Of a stretch of 64,000 bases of DNA, positions 7,223-62,079 are shown in pieces. Source of the stretch: a virus (Duplodnaviria; Caudoviricetes); the IMG/VR virus record IMGVR_UViG_3300021400_001580, positions 25,281-89,280 of that record; one strand, 5' to 3'. Positions within the stretch are counted from its first letter, which is position 1. The number at the start of each line of letters is the position of its first letter. A program made the translations under genes and the position numbers. The notes under the pieces were generated by a model that was not told the DNA's origin, searched no databases, and saw only the letters and a program-made list of their open reading frames with translations.

Positions 7223-7772
7223 AAATACTGAAATTACTAAAAATGATACCGCCAATAATATTGCCTAAAATCGTTGCGATAAAAGACCAAGTAAACGAAT
7301 GAGTTATGGATAAATAATAATAATCTGCAATACAGTGATTAAATCCCGCGAGTATAAATCCCATAACGCACAGAATACACATCCATAGAGGCGACTTCTT
7401 ACATGTTGCCAATGACATTAATATTCCGCAACCAACTCCCTTTATGAGTGCATCACCAAAAGATTGTGAAGCTTTTATTATACTTATACTATCCGCCGCA
7501 TTTATTACTAGATTACGAGAAATGACTGTAATTAATGTAACTCCAATAAAATTCCCTACAAGAAAAATAATATAATCATACCATTTATATTCACGTGTAA
7601 TCATATATTGAATTTTCCCTGTAAATAAATTTAAATTGTAAATACGCACTGCTAATAGTCCACATGAGAATAAGAACGCACCTATAATAGGATTAGATAC
7701 AGATAAGTACATCCAGCCACTTAACGCAATAATTAATCCGGCAAGAACTGATTTATGTATTTTTGTTAGCAT
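7221..7772 (-). CDS. Formate/nitrite transporter (FocA/NirC family), compact
   Basis: Hydrophobic helices; LNLFTGK, GCGILM and FILAGFNHCIAD motifs typical of FNT channels. Confidence 0.85.
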   Translation of the reverse strand: MLTKIHKSVLAGLIIALSGWMYLSVSNPIIGAFLFSCGLLAVRIYNLNLFTGKIQYMITREYKWYDYIIFLVGNFIGVTLITVISRNLVINAADSISIIKASQSFGDALIKGVGCGILMSLATCKKSPLWMCILCVMGFILAGFNHCIADYYYLSITHSFTWSFIATILGNIIGGIIFSNFSI

Positions 7773-8253
7773 AATAATCCTCCATCATAATAATACGTTG
7801 ATTAGGAGACCCTCGCAAAGGTAATGTGGTATCGCGAGTATTGATATCAAATCGGCCATCAATCAAACAAGTAATATTACGCAAAATGGCAGATAATGCC
7901 CAATTATTACGTTCTTCTAATTCTTCGATTGTATATCCGGTCCATAGATAAATTTTTAATTGCGGAAATTCATGTTTACACCAGCCAATTAATAGTGCTA
8001 CATCTTGTAAATTCTCATCCGCTAGCGGCTCGCCGCCGAGTATACACAAAGTACGCATTACGCCATTTTTATTTAATTTCTTAATAATTTCAAATAGTGT
8101 TCCTACCGTAAAGTCTTCGCCATAGTTAAAATCTTGTGCTTCGGGATTATGGCATCCGGGGCAATGGAAATGACATCCCGAAAAATACACTGAGAGGGAG
8201 ATACCTGGCGCCGCCGCGGTATCATCCCAATAGATTCCTGCAATCTTACTCAT
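7753..8253 (-). CDS. nrdG: Anaerobic ribonucleotide reductase activase (radical SAM)
   Basis: FSGCHFHCPGCHNP, ILGGEP, LRGSPNQR; adjacent to nrdD. Confidence 0.95.
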   Translation of the reverse strand: MSKIAGIYWDDTAAAPGISLSVYFSGCHFHCPGCHNPEAQDFNYGEDFTVGTLFEIIKKLNKNGVMRTLCILGGEPLADENLQDVALLIGWCKHEFPQLKIYLWTGYTIEELEERNNWALSAILRNITCLIDGRFDINTRDTTLPLRGSPNQRIIMMEDYYANKNT

Positions 8254-52600: not shown

Positions 52601-54094
52601 TTAGATCACGGAGAAAATGGCACGATAGCGATCACTTTCAAGCATTTCAAGCATCATTTCGACACCATCTTTTCCAGACAGTACTCCTTCAAGGGCACTC
52701 ATTGAAAAGCCGCTACAATATGAGAAACCGGGGCCAATTGCAGGAATATTATTCTGACGCGAATCAAGATTCCAGAAAATCACACGCGGAGCAGAATAGC
52801 CTGCGGCTTTCCATTCACGCGCTTTGCGTTCAATCAATGTATCAATTTCTGAGCGCTCAATGGTAGTATAATTCCATGAGCGCGGTCGACTATTGTTCAT
52901 CATGATGCAGTGGTCGAATTCCATGTCACTAAAAATATAAATTGTTTTTGGCATTTCTGCATCCGAGACATGATTACGTTTAGCAGTATTTAATAGTAGA
53001 TCAAATACGGCTTCAATATTAGTATTCTGGCCCCAATCAGCGTTTTCAGCACGAATAAATTTATCGTAGATATCAACGCCTTCAAACTCTACCAGTGTAG
53101 GAGCGGAGCTAAAAGTAATAAAATGATTCTGAAAAGGACCACGCCCGCGCTCTGCGATATAAGCGCCCATAGAAATTGCGGCCTCTATTGGTAAACCATA
53201 CATACTACCGCTTACATCGACAACAGCAATACCAGGTTCTTCGCGCCCGCCGTAATAATCTTTAAGATTATCCCAATACTTCTGCCAAGCCTGGCGCTCA
53301 GTAGCAGATGGGGTGCGCCAAGTTTCATAACTAAGAATCTGATGTGCAATTTCTACCGGGGTTAGTACGGAAGCATTAACTTTAGTATTCTTATTCGCCA
53401 TAAATTCAGCGTATCGCGCACGAATCTCTTCACGGCGCATAAAGGCGCTTTTATAAAGGAGCCCGGCGCGGGCAGGAAGATGCTCGAATGCAATTTCATC
53501 CCAACGGTTCTGGCTCATAAGGGTTTCGACAAGATTACATGCCTTACGTCCCTCAGAAAGCATCTTACGGTATTCACGAGGGGTCATATTAAAAGCTTCA
53601 CGTGTTTTGCGCGCGAAGCGCTTTGAATCCTTCGAGGAACAGTTTTCACTCTTTAGCCACTTATACACCAGATGGTCTTCATTCTGATTAATCACCTTAT
53701 ATAGATAATCAAACATTTCATTTTCACATGGCGTATTTTCTAGTACAAACAAGTCATCATAGCGTCCATACATGGCAACATATGGAATAAGATGAATTGC
53801 CTCTCGCTCATATTCCTGCGCGAGCCACTTATAGCAAACACGGAAGAAGCGTCGTTCGCCCGCGCCGCCGCGTGCGTCGCGCAGATAAAATAGACACTTT
53901 AGTGCAAGAGTTGCATCCTCTTCATATGCCGACTTAAACATAAGAATTACATCTTTGTCTGAGCGAGTACGCATAGAACCGCCCATAGCGAACATATCTA
54001 ACACTTTGTTTAGAGTTGATTTATGAGTAATAGCAGAATTTTCTGTAAAAGTGTAATTACTTTCCTTTTTCATTGCATTCAAAAAATCATTCAT
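52601..54094 (-). CDS. DUF2828 / TROVE (Ro60-like) protein with vWA domain
   Basis: FTENSA...LDMF...ALKCLFYLRDARGGAGERRFFR, YGRYDDL, vWA VVDVSGSM, FITFS, NTN, IFSDMEFD, FWNL, SGFS. Confidence 0.85.
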   Translation of the reverse strand: MNDFLNAMKKESNYTFTENSAITHKSTLNKVLDMFAMGGSMRTRSDKDVILMFKSAYEEDATLALKCLFYLRDARGGAGERRFFRVCYKWLAQEYEREAIHLIPYVAMYGRYDDLFVLENTPCENEMFDYLYKVINQNEDHLVYKWLKSENCSSKDSKRFARKTREAFNMTPREYRKMLSEGRKACNLVETLMSQNRWDEIAFEHLPARAGLLYKSAFMRREEIRARYAEFMANKNTKVNASVLTPVEIAHQILSYETWRTPSATERQAWQKYWDNLKDYYGGREEPGIAVVDVSGSMYGLPIEAAISMGAYIAERGRGPFQNHFITFSSAPTLVEFEGVDIYDKFIRAENADWGQNTNIEAVFDLLLNTAKRNHVSDAEMPKTIYIFSDMEFDHCIMMNNSRPRSWNYTTIERSEIDTLIERKAREWKAAGYSAPRVIFWNLDSRQNNIPAIGPGFSYCSGFSMSALEGVLSGKDGVEMMLEMLESDRYRAIFSVI

Positions 54095-58589: not shown

Positions 58590-58727
58590 ATTTCCTCCAA
58601 TAAGAAAACGCCGCGGAAGAGTTGTAGATACTACTCTACCTCTTTCAAATAGGGCTCTTCCACCATAAGGTTCCCAACGCGGCAATCTAGTAAGATCCCC
58701 GAGGGTATCTTCTATTCAAATAAAAAC

Positions 58728-58789
58728 TAGGCCATATTAAAAATTATCATTTCTCATTTAATCTTGTTTGTAATTGCTGTAATGGCCTA
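58728..58789 (-). ncRNA. Y-RNA-like small RNA 2 (terminal stem + TACAGCA + A/U-rich loop)
   Basis: Minus strand TAGGCCAT-TACAGCA-...-ATGGCCTA (8-bp terminal stem). Confidence 0.6.
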
Positions 58790-58796
58790 TAAATAC

Positions 58797-58910
58797 TAGA
58801 CAGCTTCATAATTAATTGCTCTACCAACTGAGCTACTTCTCCAATGGAGAAGATTGGATTTGAACCAATAACACATTACTTCTATGTAAGCAAACTGCTG
58901 TAACTGTCTA
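58797..58910 (-). ncRNA. Circularly permuted tRNA-mimic RNA with YrlA/Y-RNA-like topology
   Basis: Minus strand 5' TAGACAG-TTACAGCA...TAAT-GTGTT-[ATTGG TTCAAAT CCAAT]-CTTCTCC-ATT-GGAGAAG-TA-[GCTC AGTTGGTA GAGC]-A-ATTA...G-CTGTCTA 3'. Order: T arm, capped acceptor stem, D arm, inside a 7-bp terminal stem. Confidence 0.8.
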
Positions 58911-58916
58911 TCTGTG

Positions 58917-58989
58917 TCGAAGACGTCAGATTTGAACTGCAATTGGGGCTCCCGAAGCTCCCGTGTTACCGGATTACACTACGTCCTCG
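58917..58989 (-). tRNA. tRNA-Pro(CGG), atypical
   Basis: TT CGG GA loop; 8-bp acceptor CGAGGACG/CGTCTTCG; weak T stem and an A-C mismatch in the anticodon stem. Confidence 0.65.
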
Positions 58990-59094: not shown

Positions 59095-59123
59095 ATTATA
59101 TCAGAAATTCTCTTCATTGTCAA
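59095..59123 (-). promoter_or_regulatory. Sigma-A promoter upstream of the tRNA-Pro/Y-like RNA cluster
   Basis: TTGACA-17-TATAAT. Confidence 0.75.
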
Positions 59124-59379
59124 GTATCTGATCTTCCATTTCTTCAATACGCCGTTCATCACGAATAGACCAATTTTTTCCACCGCTCCAAATCTGCTTA
59201 TTTTTAGCGGTTTTCGCGCGGCAGAAAGGACAGGAACAATGCACTTTATTTTTGCTAAACTGGTGCAAATTATCATACCAATCCTGATTCAAACGATACA
59301 CTTTTCGGCTAATTTCCCGTTTGCGAATTGCTTTCTTCCAGTCATTATGACGTTTTTCTGCACGATTCCGCATAAACAT
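59101..59379 (-). CDS. Basic hypothetical protein (HCSCPFC motif)
   Basis: MRNRAEKRH...SKNKVHCSCPFC. Confidence 0.7.
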   Translation of the reverse strand: MFMRNRAEKRHNDWKKAIRKREISRKVYRLNQDWYDNLHQFSKNKVHCSCPFCRAKTAKNKQIWSGGKNWSIRDERRIEEMEDQILDNEENF

Positions 59380-59862: not shown

Positions 59863-59925
59863 ATCTTATCTCCTTTCCTTTTTACTACATTAATTATAGC
59901 ATAATTTTTATAATTGTCAAATATT

Positions 59926-61610: not shown

Positions 61611-61842
61611 AATGGCGTAAAACCCCAAACTAGCCATCATCGCGTCCGGCCGGACCGCATGTTTTCTGCCTTGAACCCGCTATCCCGCATGGTTGGCAAG
61701 GATTACATTCTTGTTTAGGGAACTTTCCCAGAGTCAAGAAACACTCTGTGCCGAAGTTCATCGAGCACTGGGACCAGGACCTCGCAGTCAGCCCCAACGG
61801 CGGTTTTTCGTCATGCTGGACTTTTTTTACCTAGGCGCCATT
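61611..61842 (-). ncRNA. Candidate ~230-nt pseudoknotted RNA
   Basis: Terminal AATGGCG..GTAAAA/TTTTAC..GCCATT; crossing helices AGTCCAGCAT/ATGATGGCT and CCCTAAAC/GTTTGGGG; several internal hairpins. Confidence 0.5.
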
Positions 61843-62079
61843 CATTTAACTCATTTAGTTATATTTATAAGTTGTTGCTGTGCGCGCCTATTTAATTAAT
61901 TGCACTTTACTTCGCTTCTTTATATACCGTTTTCCGCTAAGCCACATATCATTGACTCCCTCACGCCTTTGGGCTGAGATTTCCATTTAGGTCTACAGTC
62001 AAATGTCGGTGGTAGTTTAAGTGCTAAATTCGTGTTAACGGTGGATTGCATTTATTACACGCCGTGCATCCTGGCGTAC

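What the first reader, a model, noticed from the sequence alone, without database searches (positions are those of the whole stretch)
58728..58789. Sister small RNA sharing the terminal-stem + TACAGCA motif
Immediately downstream of the permuted tRNA-mimic is a second element with a different 8-bp terminal stem (TAGGCCAT/ATGGCCTA). The same TACAGCA follows its 5' strand, and the interior is unstructured and A/U-rich. A different stem sequence with a conserved adjacent motif is what a shared protein-binding site looks like. Inference: two ligands of one Ro-like protein, one tRNA-like and one with a single-stranded loop, as in bacteria that carry two Y RNAs.
Basis: partly seen in the sequence, partly recalled or inferred. 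Interest (0 to 1): 0.72.

Follow-up and report, generated by a model that had tools for sequence, protein, structure and literature searches.

The report
Phage Y-like RNA for Ro-like protein
This 63-base phage RNA gene is real: it is a minimal member of a large, apparently undescribed family of small RNAs that share one "handle" (a 7-bp closing stem, two bases, ACAGCAA, a trailing G). The family sits beside genes for a Ro60-shaped protein in very different phages and gut bacteria, which points to a second kind of Ro/Y-RNA particle.

Summary
On the minus strand at 58789-58727 lies UAGGCCA-UU-ACAGCAA, a 39-nt interior that is 85% A/U, then UGGCCUA-G. It follows directly after a YrlA-like tRNA mimic (58910-58796) that has the same handle. 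A third copy sits at 61890-61831.

The handle is invariant in 16 orthologous loci, and one stem pair shows a compensatory change. A covariance model built only from other phages finds the element at E 3e-8.

The same handle (7-bp stem, 2 nt, ACAGCAA, trailing G) occurs beside DUF2828/DUF7788 genes in Mycobacterium, Bacillus, Listeria, Enterococcus, Staphylococcus, E. coli, Campylobacter and Vibrio phages. It also occurs in 73 of 80 bacterial-assembly loci. It lies almost always on the gene's strand. In the metagenomic loci that I tallied it lies upstream of the gene.

In the reverse direction, 18 of 19 near-complete viral genomes that carry the RNA encode the protein. The protein's predicted fold matches Ro60 and nothing else over its whole length.

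The reading "two ligands of one Ro-like protein" is therefore supported by comparative evidence. Binding and expression are not shown.

The motif differs from the GNCGAA motif of canonical Y RNAs. It matches the unexplained Class I RNAs of dictyostelid amoebae. This scan has already found the same system on other DNA (at least 88 genomes). I found no published description.

The parts
58727..58789 (-). Element B (the finding): a 63-nt handle RNA. 5' strand UAGGCCA 58789-58783; spacer UU 58782-58781; ACAGCAA 58780-58774; A/U-rich interior 58773-58735; 3' strand UGGCCUA 58734-58728; trailing G 58727.
   Evidence: Sequence. Model R1, built from other phages, scores 43.2 bits, E 3e-8, full length. 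16 orthologs have an invariant handle and one compensatory pair.
58796..58910 (-). Element A: the same handle (UAGACAG-UU-ACAGCAG ... CUGUCUA-G) enclosing a circularly permuted tRNA-like module (T arm, capped acceptor hairpin, D arm) of YrlA type.
   Evidence: Rfam RF02553 YrlA, 38.1 bits, E 1e-6, model positions 23-88, below the gathering score of 69. Fold -35 kcal/mol, z -3.4. In relatives the stem shows TAGACAG/CTGTCTA versus TAGACGG/CCGTCTA, and the cargo is deleted in L005 and L001.
61831..61890 (-). Element C: a third handle RNA of the genome, UAGGCGC-GC-ACAGCAA ... GCGCCUA-G, 60 nt, in the tRNA array.
   Evidence: Pattern scans. R1 scores 33.3 bits, E 1e-5. Sequence.
58916..58989 (-). 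tRNA-Pro(CGG), the first gene of the transcription unit. It ends 6 nt before element A.
   Evidence: ARAGORN and Rfam tRNA. Spacers CACAGA and UAUUUA separate the units.
59095..59123 (-). Consensus sigma-70-type promoter (TTGACA, 17 nt, TG-n-TATAAT) that probably drives tRNA-Pro, A and B.
   Evidence: 12 of 12 consensus matches with an extended -10 TG. The hexamers are invariant in all 7 related loci.
52601..54094 (-). Gene for the 497-aa DUF2828 + DUF7788 (vWA) protein with a Ro60 fold, the proposed protein partner. It lies 4.6 kb downstream of B on the same strand.
   Evidence: Pfam PF25043 4e-40 and PF11443 1e-24. AF2 pLDDT 87.5. Foldseek best hits 1yvr E 2e-8, 2nvo, 2i91, 9kop; the 12 best are all Ro60.

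Best explanation
Element B is a small non-coding RNA of about 63 nt. It is probably transcribed on the minus strand from the consensus promoter at 59123-59095 as part of one precursor (tRNA-Pro, element A, element B) and then cut out.

Its ends form a 7-bp closing stem. Directly after the 5' strand come two bases and the single-stranded ACAGCAA, and one G follows the 3' strand. This 'handle' is the constant part of a large RNA family. It is most likely the binding site for the phage's Ro60-fold protein (DUF2828/DUF7788, gene at 54094-52601). By analogy, Ro60 recognises a short motif on the 5' strand next to the closing stem of Y RNAs.

The interior is the variable 'cargo'. In other members it is a permuted tRNA (as in element A), a T arm, an anticodon-like hairpin, or nothing structured. 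B is a minimal member with an 85% A/U single-stranded interior. It would either occupy or gate the protein, or offer a single-stranded tether for another factor, as Y RNA loops do for PNPase in Deinococcus.

Shown: the sequence architecture, its conservation, family membership, co-occurrence with the protein gene, and the protein's Ro60-like fold. Inferred: transcription and processing, binding, and any downstream function.

The genomic company is RNA-repair-type genes: an AAA_33 kinase, a metallophosphoesterase and an RlaP nucleotidyltransferase in the window, and RtcB and RNA ligase in Listeria phage. A published counter-defence phenotype exists for the Bas63 homolog gp130. Together these suggest a role in RNA repair, quality control or counter-defence during infection.
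For: Architecture and coordinates.

Ortholog conservation. The handle is invariant in 16 loci while the interior diverges. Stem pairing is 100%, with GC/AU/GU at pair 4.

Independent model. R1 was built without the window or its orthologs. It gives B 43.2 bits, E 3e-8, and C at E 1e-5, with nothing else below E 2 in 64 kb.

Family statistics:
- Strict hits number 255 against 29 in the reversed-sequence control over 1.1 Mb.
- 121 of 173 ACAGCAA sites have the stem at spacing 2, against 3-9 of 173 at other spacings.
- 169 elements lie upstream on the gene strand, against 7 downstream and 6 antisense.
- 189 unique elements have stem consensus AAGACAC, spacer WU and ACAGCAA; median length is 78 nt and the lower quartile 64 nt, so short forms like B are common.

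Cultivated phages carrying the handle next to the gene:
- Mycobacterium phage Wamburgrxpress: 3 copies, the middle one an Rfam YrlA hit.
- Bacillus phage Thrax4: 5 copies.
- Listeria LP-125: 3 copies; Enterococcus VRE9_4: 1 copy.
- E. coli HY02: 4; Campylobacter CP30A: 2; Staphylococcus S-CoN_Ph8: 3; KVP40: 2.
- Bas63: 3 copies beside bas63_0130.

Bacterial assemblies: 73 of 80 loci carry the handle, in tandem arrays of up to 9 that end just before the gene.

RNA to protein: 4 of 5 contigs; 42 of 50 contigs; 18 of 19 near-complete genomes.

Protein fold: Ro60.

Literature. [quoted passage not shown] Thermus phage Ro60 binds two upstream Y-like RNAs through a CGAA motif beside the closing stem (PMC12135203). 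Bas63 gp130 is Ro60-like and counters the ppl defence, and its authors only guessed at the Y RNAs (PMC11482910).
Against: - There is no binding or expression evidence for this RNA or any relative. RNA-library contigs from ruminant gut samples cover relatives of A and of B's handle, but they cannot show transcription or RNA ends.
- In this phage B lies 4.6 kb from the protein gene, with tRNAs and other genes between. That is further than in most loci (median 1.8 kb).
- B has lost the hairpins that most of its orthologs carry, so this copy could be decaying.
- Most positions of the closing stem are conserved in sequence. Within B's orthologs only one pair covaries.
- The family scan required pairing, which is partly circular. 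The spacing control and the independent model address this.
- In Dictyostelium, RNAs with the same motif were shown to bind an RRM protein (Rnp1A/CIBP) directly. The handle could therefore be read by a protein other than DUF2828.
- The handle also tracks tRNA arrays, a possible confounder. It is weakened by the Mycobacterium phage locus, which has three copies beside the gene and no tRNA in 13 kb.
Confidence: 0.7

Rival explanations
1. The handle is a real RNA signature, but a factor other than the DUF2828 protein reads it. Candidates are a processing nuclease, an RNA-repair enzyme (RtcB, RNA ligase, kinase-phosphatase) or an RRM/KH-type host protein. On this view the protein gene merely belongs to the same pathway or gene island.
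For: In Dictyostelium the only direct binder shown for an ACAGCAA-bearing Class I RNA is the RRM protein Rnp1A/CIBP (bioRxiv 10.1101/2020.04.05.026054). RNA-repair-type genes lie in the same neighbourhoods. The 7-bp stem plus one 3' base resembles a tRNA acceptor end, and the elements fill gaps in tRNA arrays, which would suit tRNA-processing enzymes.
Against: The co-occurrence is with DUF2828 specifically and holds across eight phage groups whose other neighbouring genes differ. In bacterial assemblies the arrays end 20-40 nt before the DUF2828 start codon. The Mycobacterium phage has the RNAs beside the gene with no tRNA or repair genes nearby. The protein has the fold of a known Y-RNA binder.
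Confidence: 0.15
2. Element B is a decaying, non-functional remnant of a longer handle RNA that has lost its T-arm and anticodon-like hairpins, kept only by recent descent.
For: 12 of the 15 orthologous copies aligned carry a T-arm-like hairpin that the window lacks. The alignment shows a gap of roughly 35-50 nt in the window's copy. The fold z-score is only -1.89.
Against: The handle is intact and invariant while the interior is free to vary. Short, unstructured members are the commonest class family-wide (lower quartile 64 nt; the Listeria, Staphylococcus and Campylobacter phages carry members of 56-64 nt). B scores higher against the family model than C and than many training-set members. 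Other short forms occur in L007 and L031/L133.
Confidence: 0.1
3. The hairpin is a transcription terminator or processing spacer of the tRNA operon, or a DNA-level inverted repeat (a protein-binding site or miniature mobile element), rather than a functional RNA.
For: A U-rich run (GUUUUUAUUU) follows the 3' strand in the window. The element sits at the end of a tRNA + YrlA-like unit.
Against: The loop is 48 nt between the 7-bp strands, and the terminator scan does not call it. The U run is not conserved in relatives. The elements are strongly strand-specific relative to the protein gene (169 against 6), which argues for RNA rather than DNA function. Many elements lie in tandem, where a terminator would be counter-productive. 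Stems change by compensatory substitutions while interiors differ completely between copies, unlike transposon copies.
Confidence: 0.04

Closest known systems
Bacterial and phage Y RNAs with Ro60/Rsr: YrlA and YrlB (Salmonella, M. smegmatis, mycobacteriophages), Yrn1/Yrn2 (Deinococcus); Rfam RF02553; Chen et al. 2014, PMC4201824
   Same: Small RNAs of 50-130 nt are closed by a 5'/3' stem, with a short conserved motif on the 5' side. They are encoded near the gene of a Ro60-fold protein and on the same strand. There are two or more per genome, one with a permuted tRNA-like module (element A here) and one simpler (B here). They are processed from a common precursor in M. smegmatis, and RNA-repair genes lie nearby.
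   Different: The motif is NN-ACAGCAA after a 7-bp stem, not GNCGAAN0-1G. The protein matches Pfam DUF2828/DUF7788, not TROVE, and is about 12-13% identical to solved Ro60s. B has no Rfam match, and A reaches only 38 of the 69 bits required. Copy number can reach 9 in tandem. Binding is not shown.
Thermus phage phiLo Ro60 with Yrl1/Yrl2 (PMC12135203; PDB 9KOP, 9L5Y)
   Same: A phage-encoded Ro60-fold protein has two Y-like RNAs encoded upstream of its gene. A short motif beside the closing stem is needed for binding. 9KOP is among the best structural matches of the window's protein (E 2e-6).
   Different: phiLo uses the canonical CGAA motif and a TROVE-type protein. The window protein is not detectably similar to it in sequence.
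Class I RNAs of dictyostelid social amoebae (Kjellin et al. 2021, PMC7919456)
   Same: The design is the same: about 60 nt, low GC, a short stem joining the 5' and 3' ends, an 11-nt motif CCUUACAGCAA directly after the 5' strand, and a variable rest. B reads CAUUACAGCAA at the same place (10 of 11), in the same 7 + 2 + 7 register (supplement files 19 and 46).
   Different: Class I RNAs are eukaryotic genes with their own DUSE promoter. They have an invariant 5' G and a 3' CUGU end, a 6-bp stem, no tRNA-like cargo, and were reported as unique to Dictyostelia. Their shown direct binder is an RRM protein. Whether amoebae pair them with a DUF2828 protein was not testable here.
Escherichia phage Bas63 (JohannRWettstein) gp130, a counter of the ppl defence (PhageMaP preprint, PMC11482910)
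   Same: bas63_0130 is a homolog of the window's protein (28% identity, E 7e-40; locus tag). Three handle RNAs lie in the gaps of the tRNA array just downstream of it.
   Different: The preprint only supposed that some annotated tRNAs might be Y RNAs. It did not identify the RNAs or the motif. No phenotype is known for the window's phage.

Membership tests
ACAGCAA-handle small RNAs beside DUF2828/DUF7788 genes (family defined here; no published name found) | 7-bp closing stem joining the 5' and 3' ends | tested here: met
   UAGGCCA / UGGCCUA, 7 of 7 Watson-Crick pairs, plus a possible eighth U-A pair. Paired in all 16 orthologs.
ACAGCAA-handle small RNAs beside DUF2828/DUF7788 genes (family defined here; no published name found) | Exactly 2 nt, then ACAGCAA, directly after the 5' strand; one G after the 3' strand | tested here: met
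   UU + ACAGCAA at 58782-58774 and G at 58727. Family profile: A74 C100 A100 G100 C100 A100 A91 % (the CAGCA core was required by the search), with spacer W/U. The spacing is specific: 121 of 173 at 2 nt.
ACAGCAA-handle small RNAs beside DUF2828/DUF7788 genes (family defined here; no published name found) | Significant match to a covariance model built from members in other genomes | tested here: met
   R1 scores 43.2 bits, E 3e-8, model positions 1-64 of 64. It is the best hit in the window.
ACAGCAA-handle small RNAs beside DUF2828/DUF7788 genes (family defined here; no published name found) | Encoded on the same strand as a DUF2828/DUF7788 gene and within a few kb of it | tested here: met
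   Both are on the minus strand, and B ends 4,633 nt upstream of the start codon. Family distances run from 0.3 kb (10th percentile) to 5.1 kb (90th percentile).
Y RNA / YrlA-YrlB (Rfam RF02553; Chen et al. 2014) | GNCGAAN0-1G motif near the 5' end (proposed Ro60 contact) | tested here: not met
   B and A carry UUACAGCAA/G instead. No GNCGAA is present.
Y RNA / YrlA-YrlB (Rfam RF02553; Chen et al. 2014) | Reaches the Rfam gathering score | tested here: not met
   B has no YrlA match at E up to 10. A reaches 38.1 bits against the 69 required, and only the tRNA-like core aligns.
Y RNA / YrlA-YrlB (Rfam RF02553; Chen et al. 2014) | Encoded near a Ro60 ortholog (TROVE + vWA ring protein) on the same strand | tested here: inconclusive
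   The neighbour has the Ro60 fold: its 12 best PDB matches are all Ro60, with TM 0.5-0.58 for most of them. It matches Pfam DUF2828/DUF7788, not TROVE, and no solved Ro60 by sequence.
Y RNA / YrlA-YrlB (Rfam RF02553; Chen et al. 2014) | Bound and stabilised by the Ro60 protein | not testable with these tools
   This needs RIP, EMSA or a deletion strain. No protein-RNA modelling tool was on hand.
Dictyostelid Class I RNAs (PMC7919456) | 42-65 nt, with a short terminal stem and the 11-nt motif CCUUACAGCAA next to its 5' strand | tested here: met
   B is 63 nt with a 7-bp stem. CAUUACAGCAA matches 10 of the 11 motif positions in the same register as DdR-28, DdR-35 and others.
Dictyostelid Class I RNAs (PMC7919456) | DUSE promoter about 60 nt upstream, invariant 5' G, 3' CUGU end, dictyostelid genome | tested here: not met
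   This is a bacterial-type promoter and polycistronic unit. The 5' base is U and the 3' end is G-U. The contig is a phage contig whose relatives turn up in ruminant gut samples.
Intrinsic (Rho-independent) terminator | G+C-rich hairpin with a 3-8 nt loop followed by a U run | tested here: not met
   The loop is 48 nt between the 7-bp strands. The consensus scan does not call it. The U run is not conserved.

The most novel reading that the evidence does not exclude
The ACAGCAA-handle RNAs and the DUF2828 Ro60-fold proteins form an ancient ribonucleoprotein distinct from the canonical Ro60/Y RNA particle. It would be shared by phages of Gram-positive, Gram-negative and actinobacterial hosts, by gut bacteria, and (according to earlier notes of this scan) by giant viruses. 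The 'orphan' Class I RNAs of dictyostelid amoebae would be its eukaryotic members. Their missing partner may be a DUF2828 protein, possibly the uncharacterised DDB_G0281243 that was pulled down with DdR-21. In phages the particle would display interchangeable tRNA-like parts, or a bare handle like B, to repair, shield or decoy RNA during the conflict with host defences.
Probability: 0.35. Interest if true: 0.92.

Novelty: new variant of a known kind. Interest (0 to 1): 0.78.

Why it matters
Ro60 and Y RNAs are a classic but still poorly understood RNP, studied in autoimmunity, RNA quality control and RNA repair. This finding adds a second, sequence-defined RNA handle tied to a second, much more widespread branch of Ro60-fold proteins. 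Homologs occur in about 1.4% of deposited phage genomes and in more than 6,000 protein clusters in metagenomes.

The work gives a simple rule and a covariance model for finding the partner RNAs. Many of these are currently unannotated or mis-annotated as tiny ORFs.

It supplies concrete RNA candidates for the one member with a phenotype, Bas63 gp130, which counters the ppl defence.

It also makes the 20-year-old puzzle of the Dictyostelium Class I RNAs testable from a new angle. Element B itself is a convenient minimal substrate: a handle with no cargo.

Tried and rejected
- blastn of the region against 50,697 phage records found only a tRNA-like 52-nt match, with no close cultivated relative.
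- phmmer of the protein against PDB sequences found nothing. The relation to Ro60 is visible only by fold.
- TACAGCA alone is not informative: it occurs 15 times in 89 kb, against 3 for the reversed control.
- The 15-mer and 16-mer collection scans return many chance matches. Only 13 of 109 and 71 of 114 loci have the 3' strand.
- The '16-mer without stem' set was meant as a negative control, but it is contaminated. 8 of 42 contigs do encode the protein, probably with variant or long elements. I therefore used the phage-database base rate instead.
- Metatranscriptomes: four ruminant-gut runs hold small shares of the stretch. Their contigs cover relatives of A plus B's handle, and the downstream structured RNA. 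They diverge inside B. They also cover the promoter region. Contigs cannot show transcription, strand or ends, so there is no verdict on expression.
- Terminator reading: not supported.
- I tried to learn whether Dictyostelium DDB_G0281243 is a DUF2828 protein. The paper search, the supplement search and the homolog search gave nothing usable.
- No binding prediction was attempted, because the complex tool does not take RNA.

Full report
WHAT IS THERE

The finding must be read on the minus strand.

Six nucleotides upstream on the RNA strand ends element A (58910-58796): UAGACAG UU ACAGCAG ... CUGUCUA G. Its interior is a circularly permuted tRNA (T arm, capped acceptor hairpin, D arm). It matches Rfam YrlA at 38.1 bits, E 1e-6, below the gathering score of 69, and folds at -35 kcal/mol, z -3.4.

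Six nucleotides before A ends a tRNA-Pro(CGG). Upstream of that is a perfect TTGACA-17-TGnTATAAT promoter at 59123-59095. The likely unit is therefore promoter, leader, tRNA-Pro, A, B.

IS IT MORE THAN CHANCE?

Taken alone, B is weak evidence. The MFE is -11.2 kcal/mol, nearly all from the closing stem, with z -1.89. TACAGCA occurs 15 times in the 89-kb viral contig. Comparison settles the question.

The DUF2828 protein of the window (54094-52601) led to seven related viral contigs at 66-78% protein identity. The tRNA/A/B region aligns in all of them. B is present in 7 of 7 with an invariant handle, and L006 has the compensatory stem UAGACCA/UGGUCUA.

With nine further orthologs found by a DNA pattern, the alignment of 16 sequences shows the following:
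- The first 15 and last 9 positions are conserved, apart from the one covarying pair.
- All stem cells are paired, and pair 4 is GC in 12, AU in 3 and GU in 1.
- The interior is poorly conserved.

A covariance model (R1) was built from 62 short members from other phages, leaving out the window and B's orthologs. It finds B as the best hit in the window (43.2 bits, E 3e-8, full length) and a third element, C (61890-61831, UAGGCGC GC ACAGCAA ... GCGCCUA G), at E 1e-5. Nothing else scores below E 2. In the whole genome only A, B and C fit the full pattern.

THE FAMILY

The same architecture appeared where I looked for distant homologs of the protein.

Beside the 'Ro-like RNA binding protein' of Mycobacterium phage Wamburgrxpress, which scans as DUF2828/DUF7788 and not TROVE, lie three elements. 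The middle one is an Rfam YrlA hit.

Other cultivated phages:
- Bacillus phage Thrax4 has five upstream of the gene. In its 169-kb genome, 5 of 7 matches to a loose 5' pattern fall in those 1.6 kb.
- Listeria LP-125 has three, directly upstream of the gene.
- Enterococcus VRE9_4 has one.
- E. coli phage HY02 has four.
- Campylobacter CP30A has two.
- Staphylococcus S-CoN_Ph8 has three.
- KVP40 has two long ones.
- Bas63 has three, next to bas63_0130.

In 80 more viral loci at 40-74% protein identity, a strict pattern was scanned: a 7-bp stem with at most one G-U, 2 nt, N[C/G]AGCA, then the 3' strand followed by G. It gave 255 hits against 29 in reversed sequence.

Of the NCAGCAA elements, 169 lie upstream on the gene strand, 0 in the gene, 7 downstream and 6 antisense.

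The non-circular control looks at the 173 ACAGCAA heptamers on the gene strand upstream of the gene. Of these, 121 have a perfect stem at spacing 2, against 3-9 at spacings 0, 1, 3, 4 and 5. The heptamer itself is five- to eight-fold enriched there.

The profile of 189 unique elements gives stem AAGACAC, spacer W-U, ACAGCAA, and 3' GUGUCUU-G-U. Lengths are 54-151 nt, with a median of 78. Short, cargo-less members like B are therefore ordinary.

In 80 loci from bacterial genome assemblies, 73 carry the elements. These are mostly gut and rumen Bacillota, including isolates of Butyrivibrio and Ruminococcus flavefaciens. The elements often form tandem arrays of up to nine that end just before the start codon.

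In the reverse direction, 4 of 5 contigs with B-type RNAs encode the protein. So do 42 of 50 contigs with an AAGACAC-type element, and 18 of the 19 that are at least 90% complete. The base rate is 698 of 50,697 phage records.

THE PROTEIN

Pfam finds DUF7788 (a vWA-like domain) and DUF2828. No solved structure matches by sequence.

An AF2 model from a 34-sequence alignment is confident, with pLDDT 87.5 and pTM 0.87. Its 12 best Foldseek matches in the PDB are all Ro60 over the full length. They include Xenopus 1yvr (E 2e-8, TM 0.58), Deinococcus 2nvo, Thermus phage 9kop and human 9nen. Isolated vWA domains follow far behind. 'Ro-like' is thus supported by fold, at 12-13% sequence identity.

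COMPARISON WITH WHAT IS KNOWN

Chen et al. 2014 (PMC4201824) found YrlA RNAs near Ro60 genes in 254 bacteria and 22 phages, usually with a second, simpler Y RNA. They proposed GNCGAAN0-1G near the 5' end as the Ro60 contact.

Thermus phage phiLo Ro60 binds two upstream Y-like RNAs through CGAA (PMC12135203).

Here the place of that motif is taken by NN-ACAGCAA. No Rfam family matches B or a nine-element array.

The PhageMaP preprint (PMC11482910) reports that Bas63 gp130 is Ro60-like and counters the ppl defence. It only supposes that some neighbouring tRNA genes are Y RNAs. The three model hits in the gaps of that tRNA array are concrete candidates.

Following a lead from earlier notes of this scan, I checked the dictyostelid Class I RNAs. 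Their curated sequences read GUUGACC UU ACAGCAA ... GUCAAC UG, and the authors' 11-nt motif is CCUUACAGCAA (PMC7919456 supplement). Size, register and motif are thus the same as in B (10 of 11). That paper calls them unique to Dictyostelia.

One of the four proteins pulled down with a Class I RNA is the uncharacterised DDB_G0281243. I could not find out whether it belongs to DUF2828.

HOW IT MOST LIKELY WORKS

Shown: the handle, its conservation, its linkage to the gene, and the Ro60 fold.

Inferred: the precursor is processed into A and B. The handle docks on the Ro-like ring as the 5'-strand motif of Y RNAs does on Ro60. The variable interior then determines what the particle does or recruits.

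B has lost the T-arm and anticodon-like hairpins of most of its orthologs and offers only an A/U-rich single strand. It may gate or occupy the protein, or it may tether a single-strand-binding partner as Deinococcus Y RNA tethers PNPase (PMC4201824).

The neighbouring AAA_33 kinase, metallophosphoesterase and RlaP-type nucleotidyltransferase genes and the Bas63 phenotype point to RNA repair, RNA quality control or counter-defence.

RIVALS

- Another factor reads the handle (0.15).
- B is a decaying copy (0.10).
- It is a terminator, spacer or DNA repeat (0.04).

The reasons for and against each are given in the fields above.

LIMITS

There is no evidence of expression. Ruminant-gut RNA-library contigs cover relatives of the region but cannot show transcripts or ends. 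No binding test was possible.

The handle also tracks tRNA arrays. The Mycobacterium phage locus, which has three copies and no tRNA in 13 kb, and the bacterial arrays argue that the link is to the protein. A full census was not run.

The same system has been reported repeatedly by this scan on other DNA. My counts and tests here were made independently of those notes.

Noticed in passing
window 58604-58712, minus strand: Directly after B lies a small covarying hairpin and then a roughly 90-nt RNA that is almost invariant in all 7 relatives. It has an outer stem GCCGCG/CGCGGC, a variable-length inner hairpin with GGG/CCC, GGA/UCC and AGG/CCU variants, and a conserved UAUUUGAAAGAGG. It ends in a U run, immediately followed by the RBS and start of a small ORF (the zinc-ribbon ORF 58589-58374 in the window). 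The layout looks like a riboswitch or attenuator leader. No Rfam match at E up to 10.
   Followed up: partly
L064:50-142, L069:694-785, L063:7213-7305 (-), L084:5173-5266, L004:4259-4352: In otherwise near-identical orthologs of B, a hairpin AUGU-[7 nt]-ACAU has loops CUGUAAA, CUGUUAA, CUGCAAA, CUGCGAA and UUGAGAA. These are anticodon-loop-like (U33-like base, purine after the triplet), with different 'anticodons' GUA, GUU, GCA, GCG and GAG. This is a fast-changing anticodon mimic inside a conserved RNA.
   Followed up: partly
L211:7519-7608 and 7738-7866; L407:5388-5540: Tiny 'hypothetical protein' CDS annotated in Staphylococcus phage S-CoN_Ph8 and in Bas63 (bas63_0137, antisense) overlap predicted handle RNAs. 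They are probably annotation artefacts.
   Followed up: no
L384:4885-5963, L401:4627-5685, L341:4888-5961: In gut Bacillota assemblies, tandem arrays of 8-9 handle RNAs end just before the DUF2828 start codon. Two members of L384 score as partial tRNAs in Rfam (44.6 and 30.5 bits).
   Followed up: partly
L198:6001-8181, L199:6001-7675, L200:2476-4665: The DUF2828 match spans 1.7-2.2 kb instead of about 1.5 kb in these viral contigs. This suggests an insertion (intron, intein or homing-endonuclease gene) inside the Ro-like gene.
   Followed up: no
L158:6001-7533: The DUF2828 reading frame of this 163-kb viral contig contains one in-frame stop under table 11. Possible causes are a recoded stop codon, a sequencing error or a pseudogene.
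   Followed up: no
L212:353-565 and 2595-2841 (Vibrio phage KVP40): Two unusually long candidates (213 and 247 nt) have the handle AGACAAU/AGACAUU + AU/GU + ACAGCAA inside the tRNA array. Their cargo was not examined.
   Followed up: no
window 59893-59920 and 59095-59123, minus strand: There are two perfect 12-of-12 consensus promoters with extended -10 TG within 800 nt. Ruminant-gut RNA-library contigs pile up on the promoter-proximal 59095-59150 stretch and then diverge, as if this promoter cassette is repeated in many related phages.
   Followed up: no
[quoted passage not shown]: Dictyostelium protein DDB_G0281243, of unknown function, was pulled down with the ACAGCAA-bearing Class I RNA DdR-21. 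Whether it is a DUF2828/vWA protein could not be checked here.
   Followed up: partly
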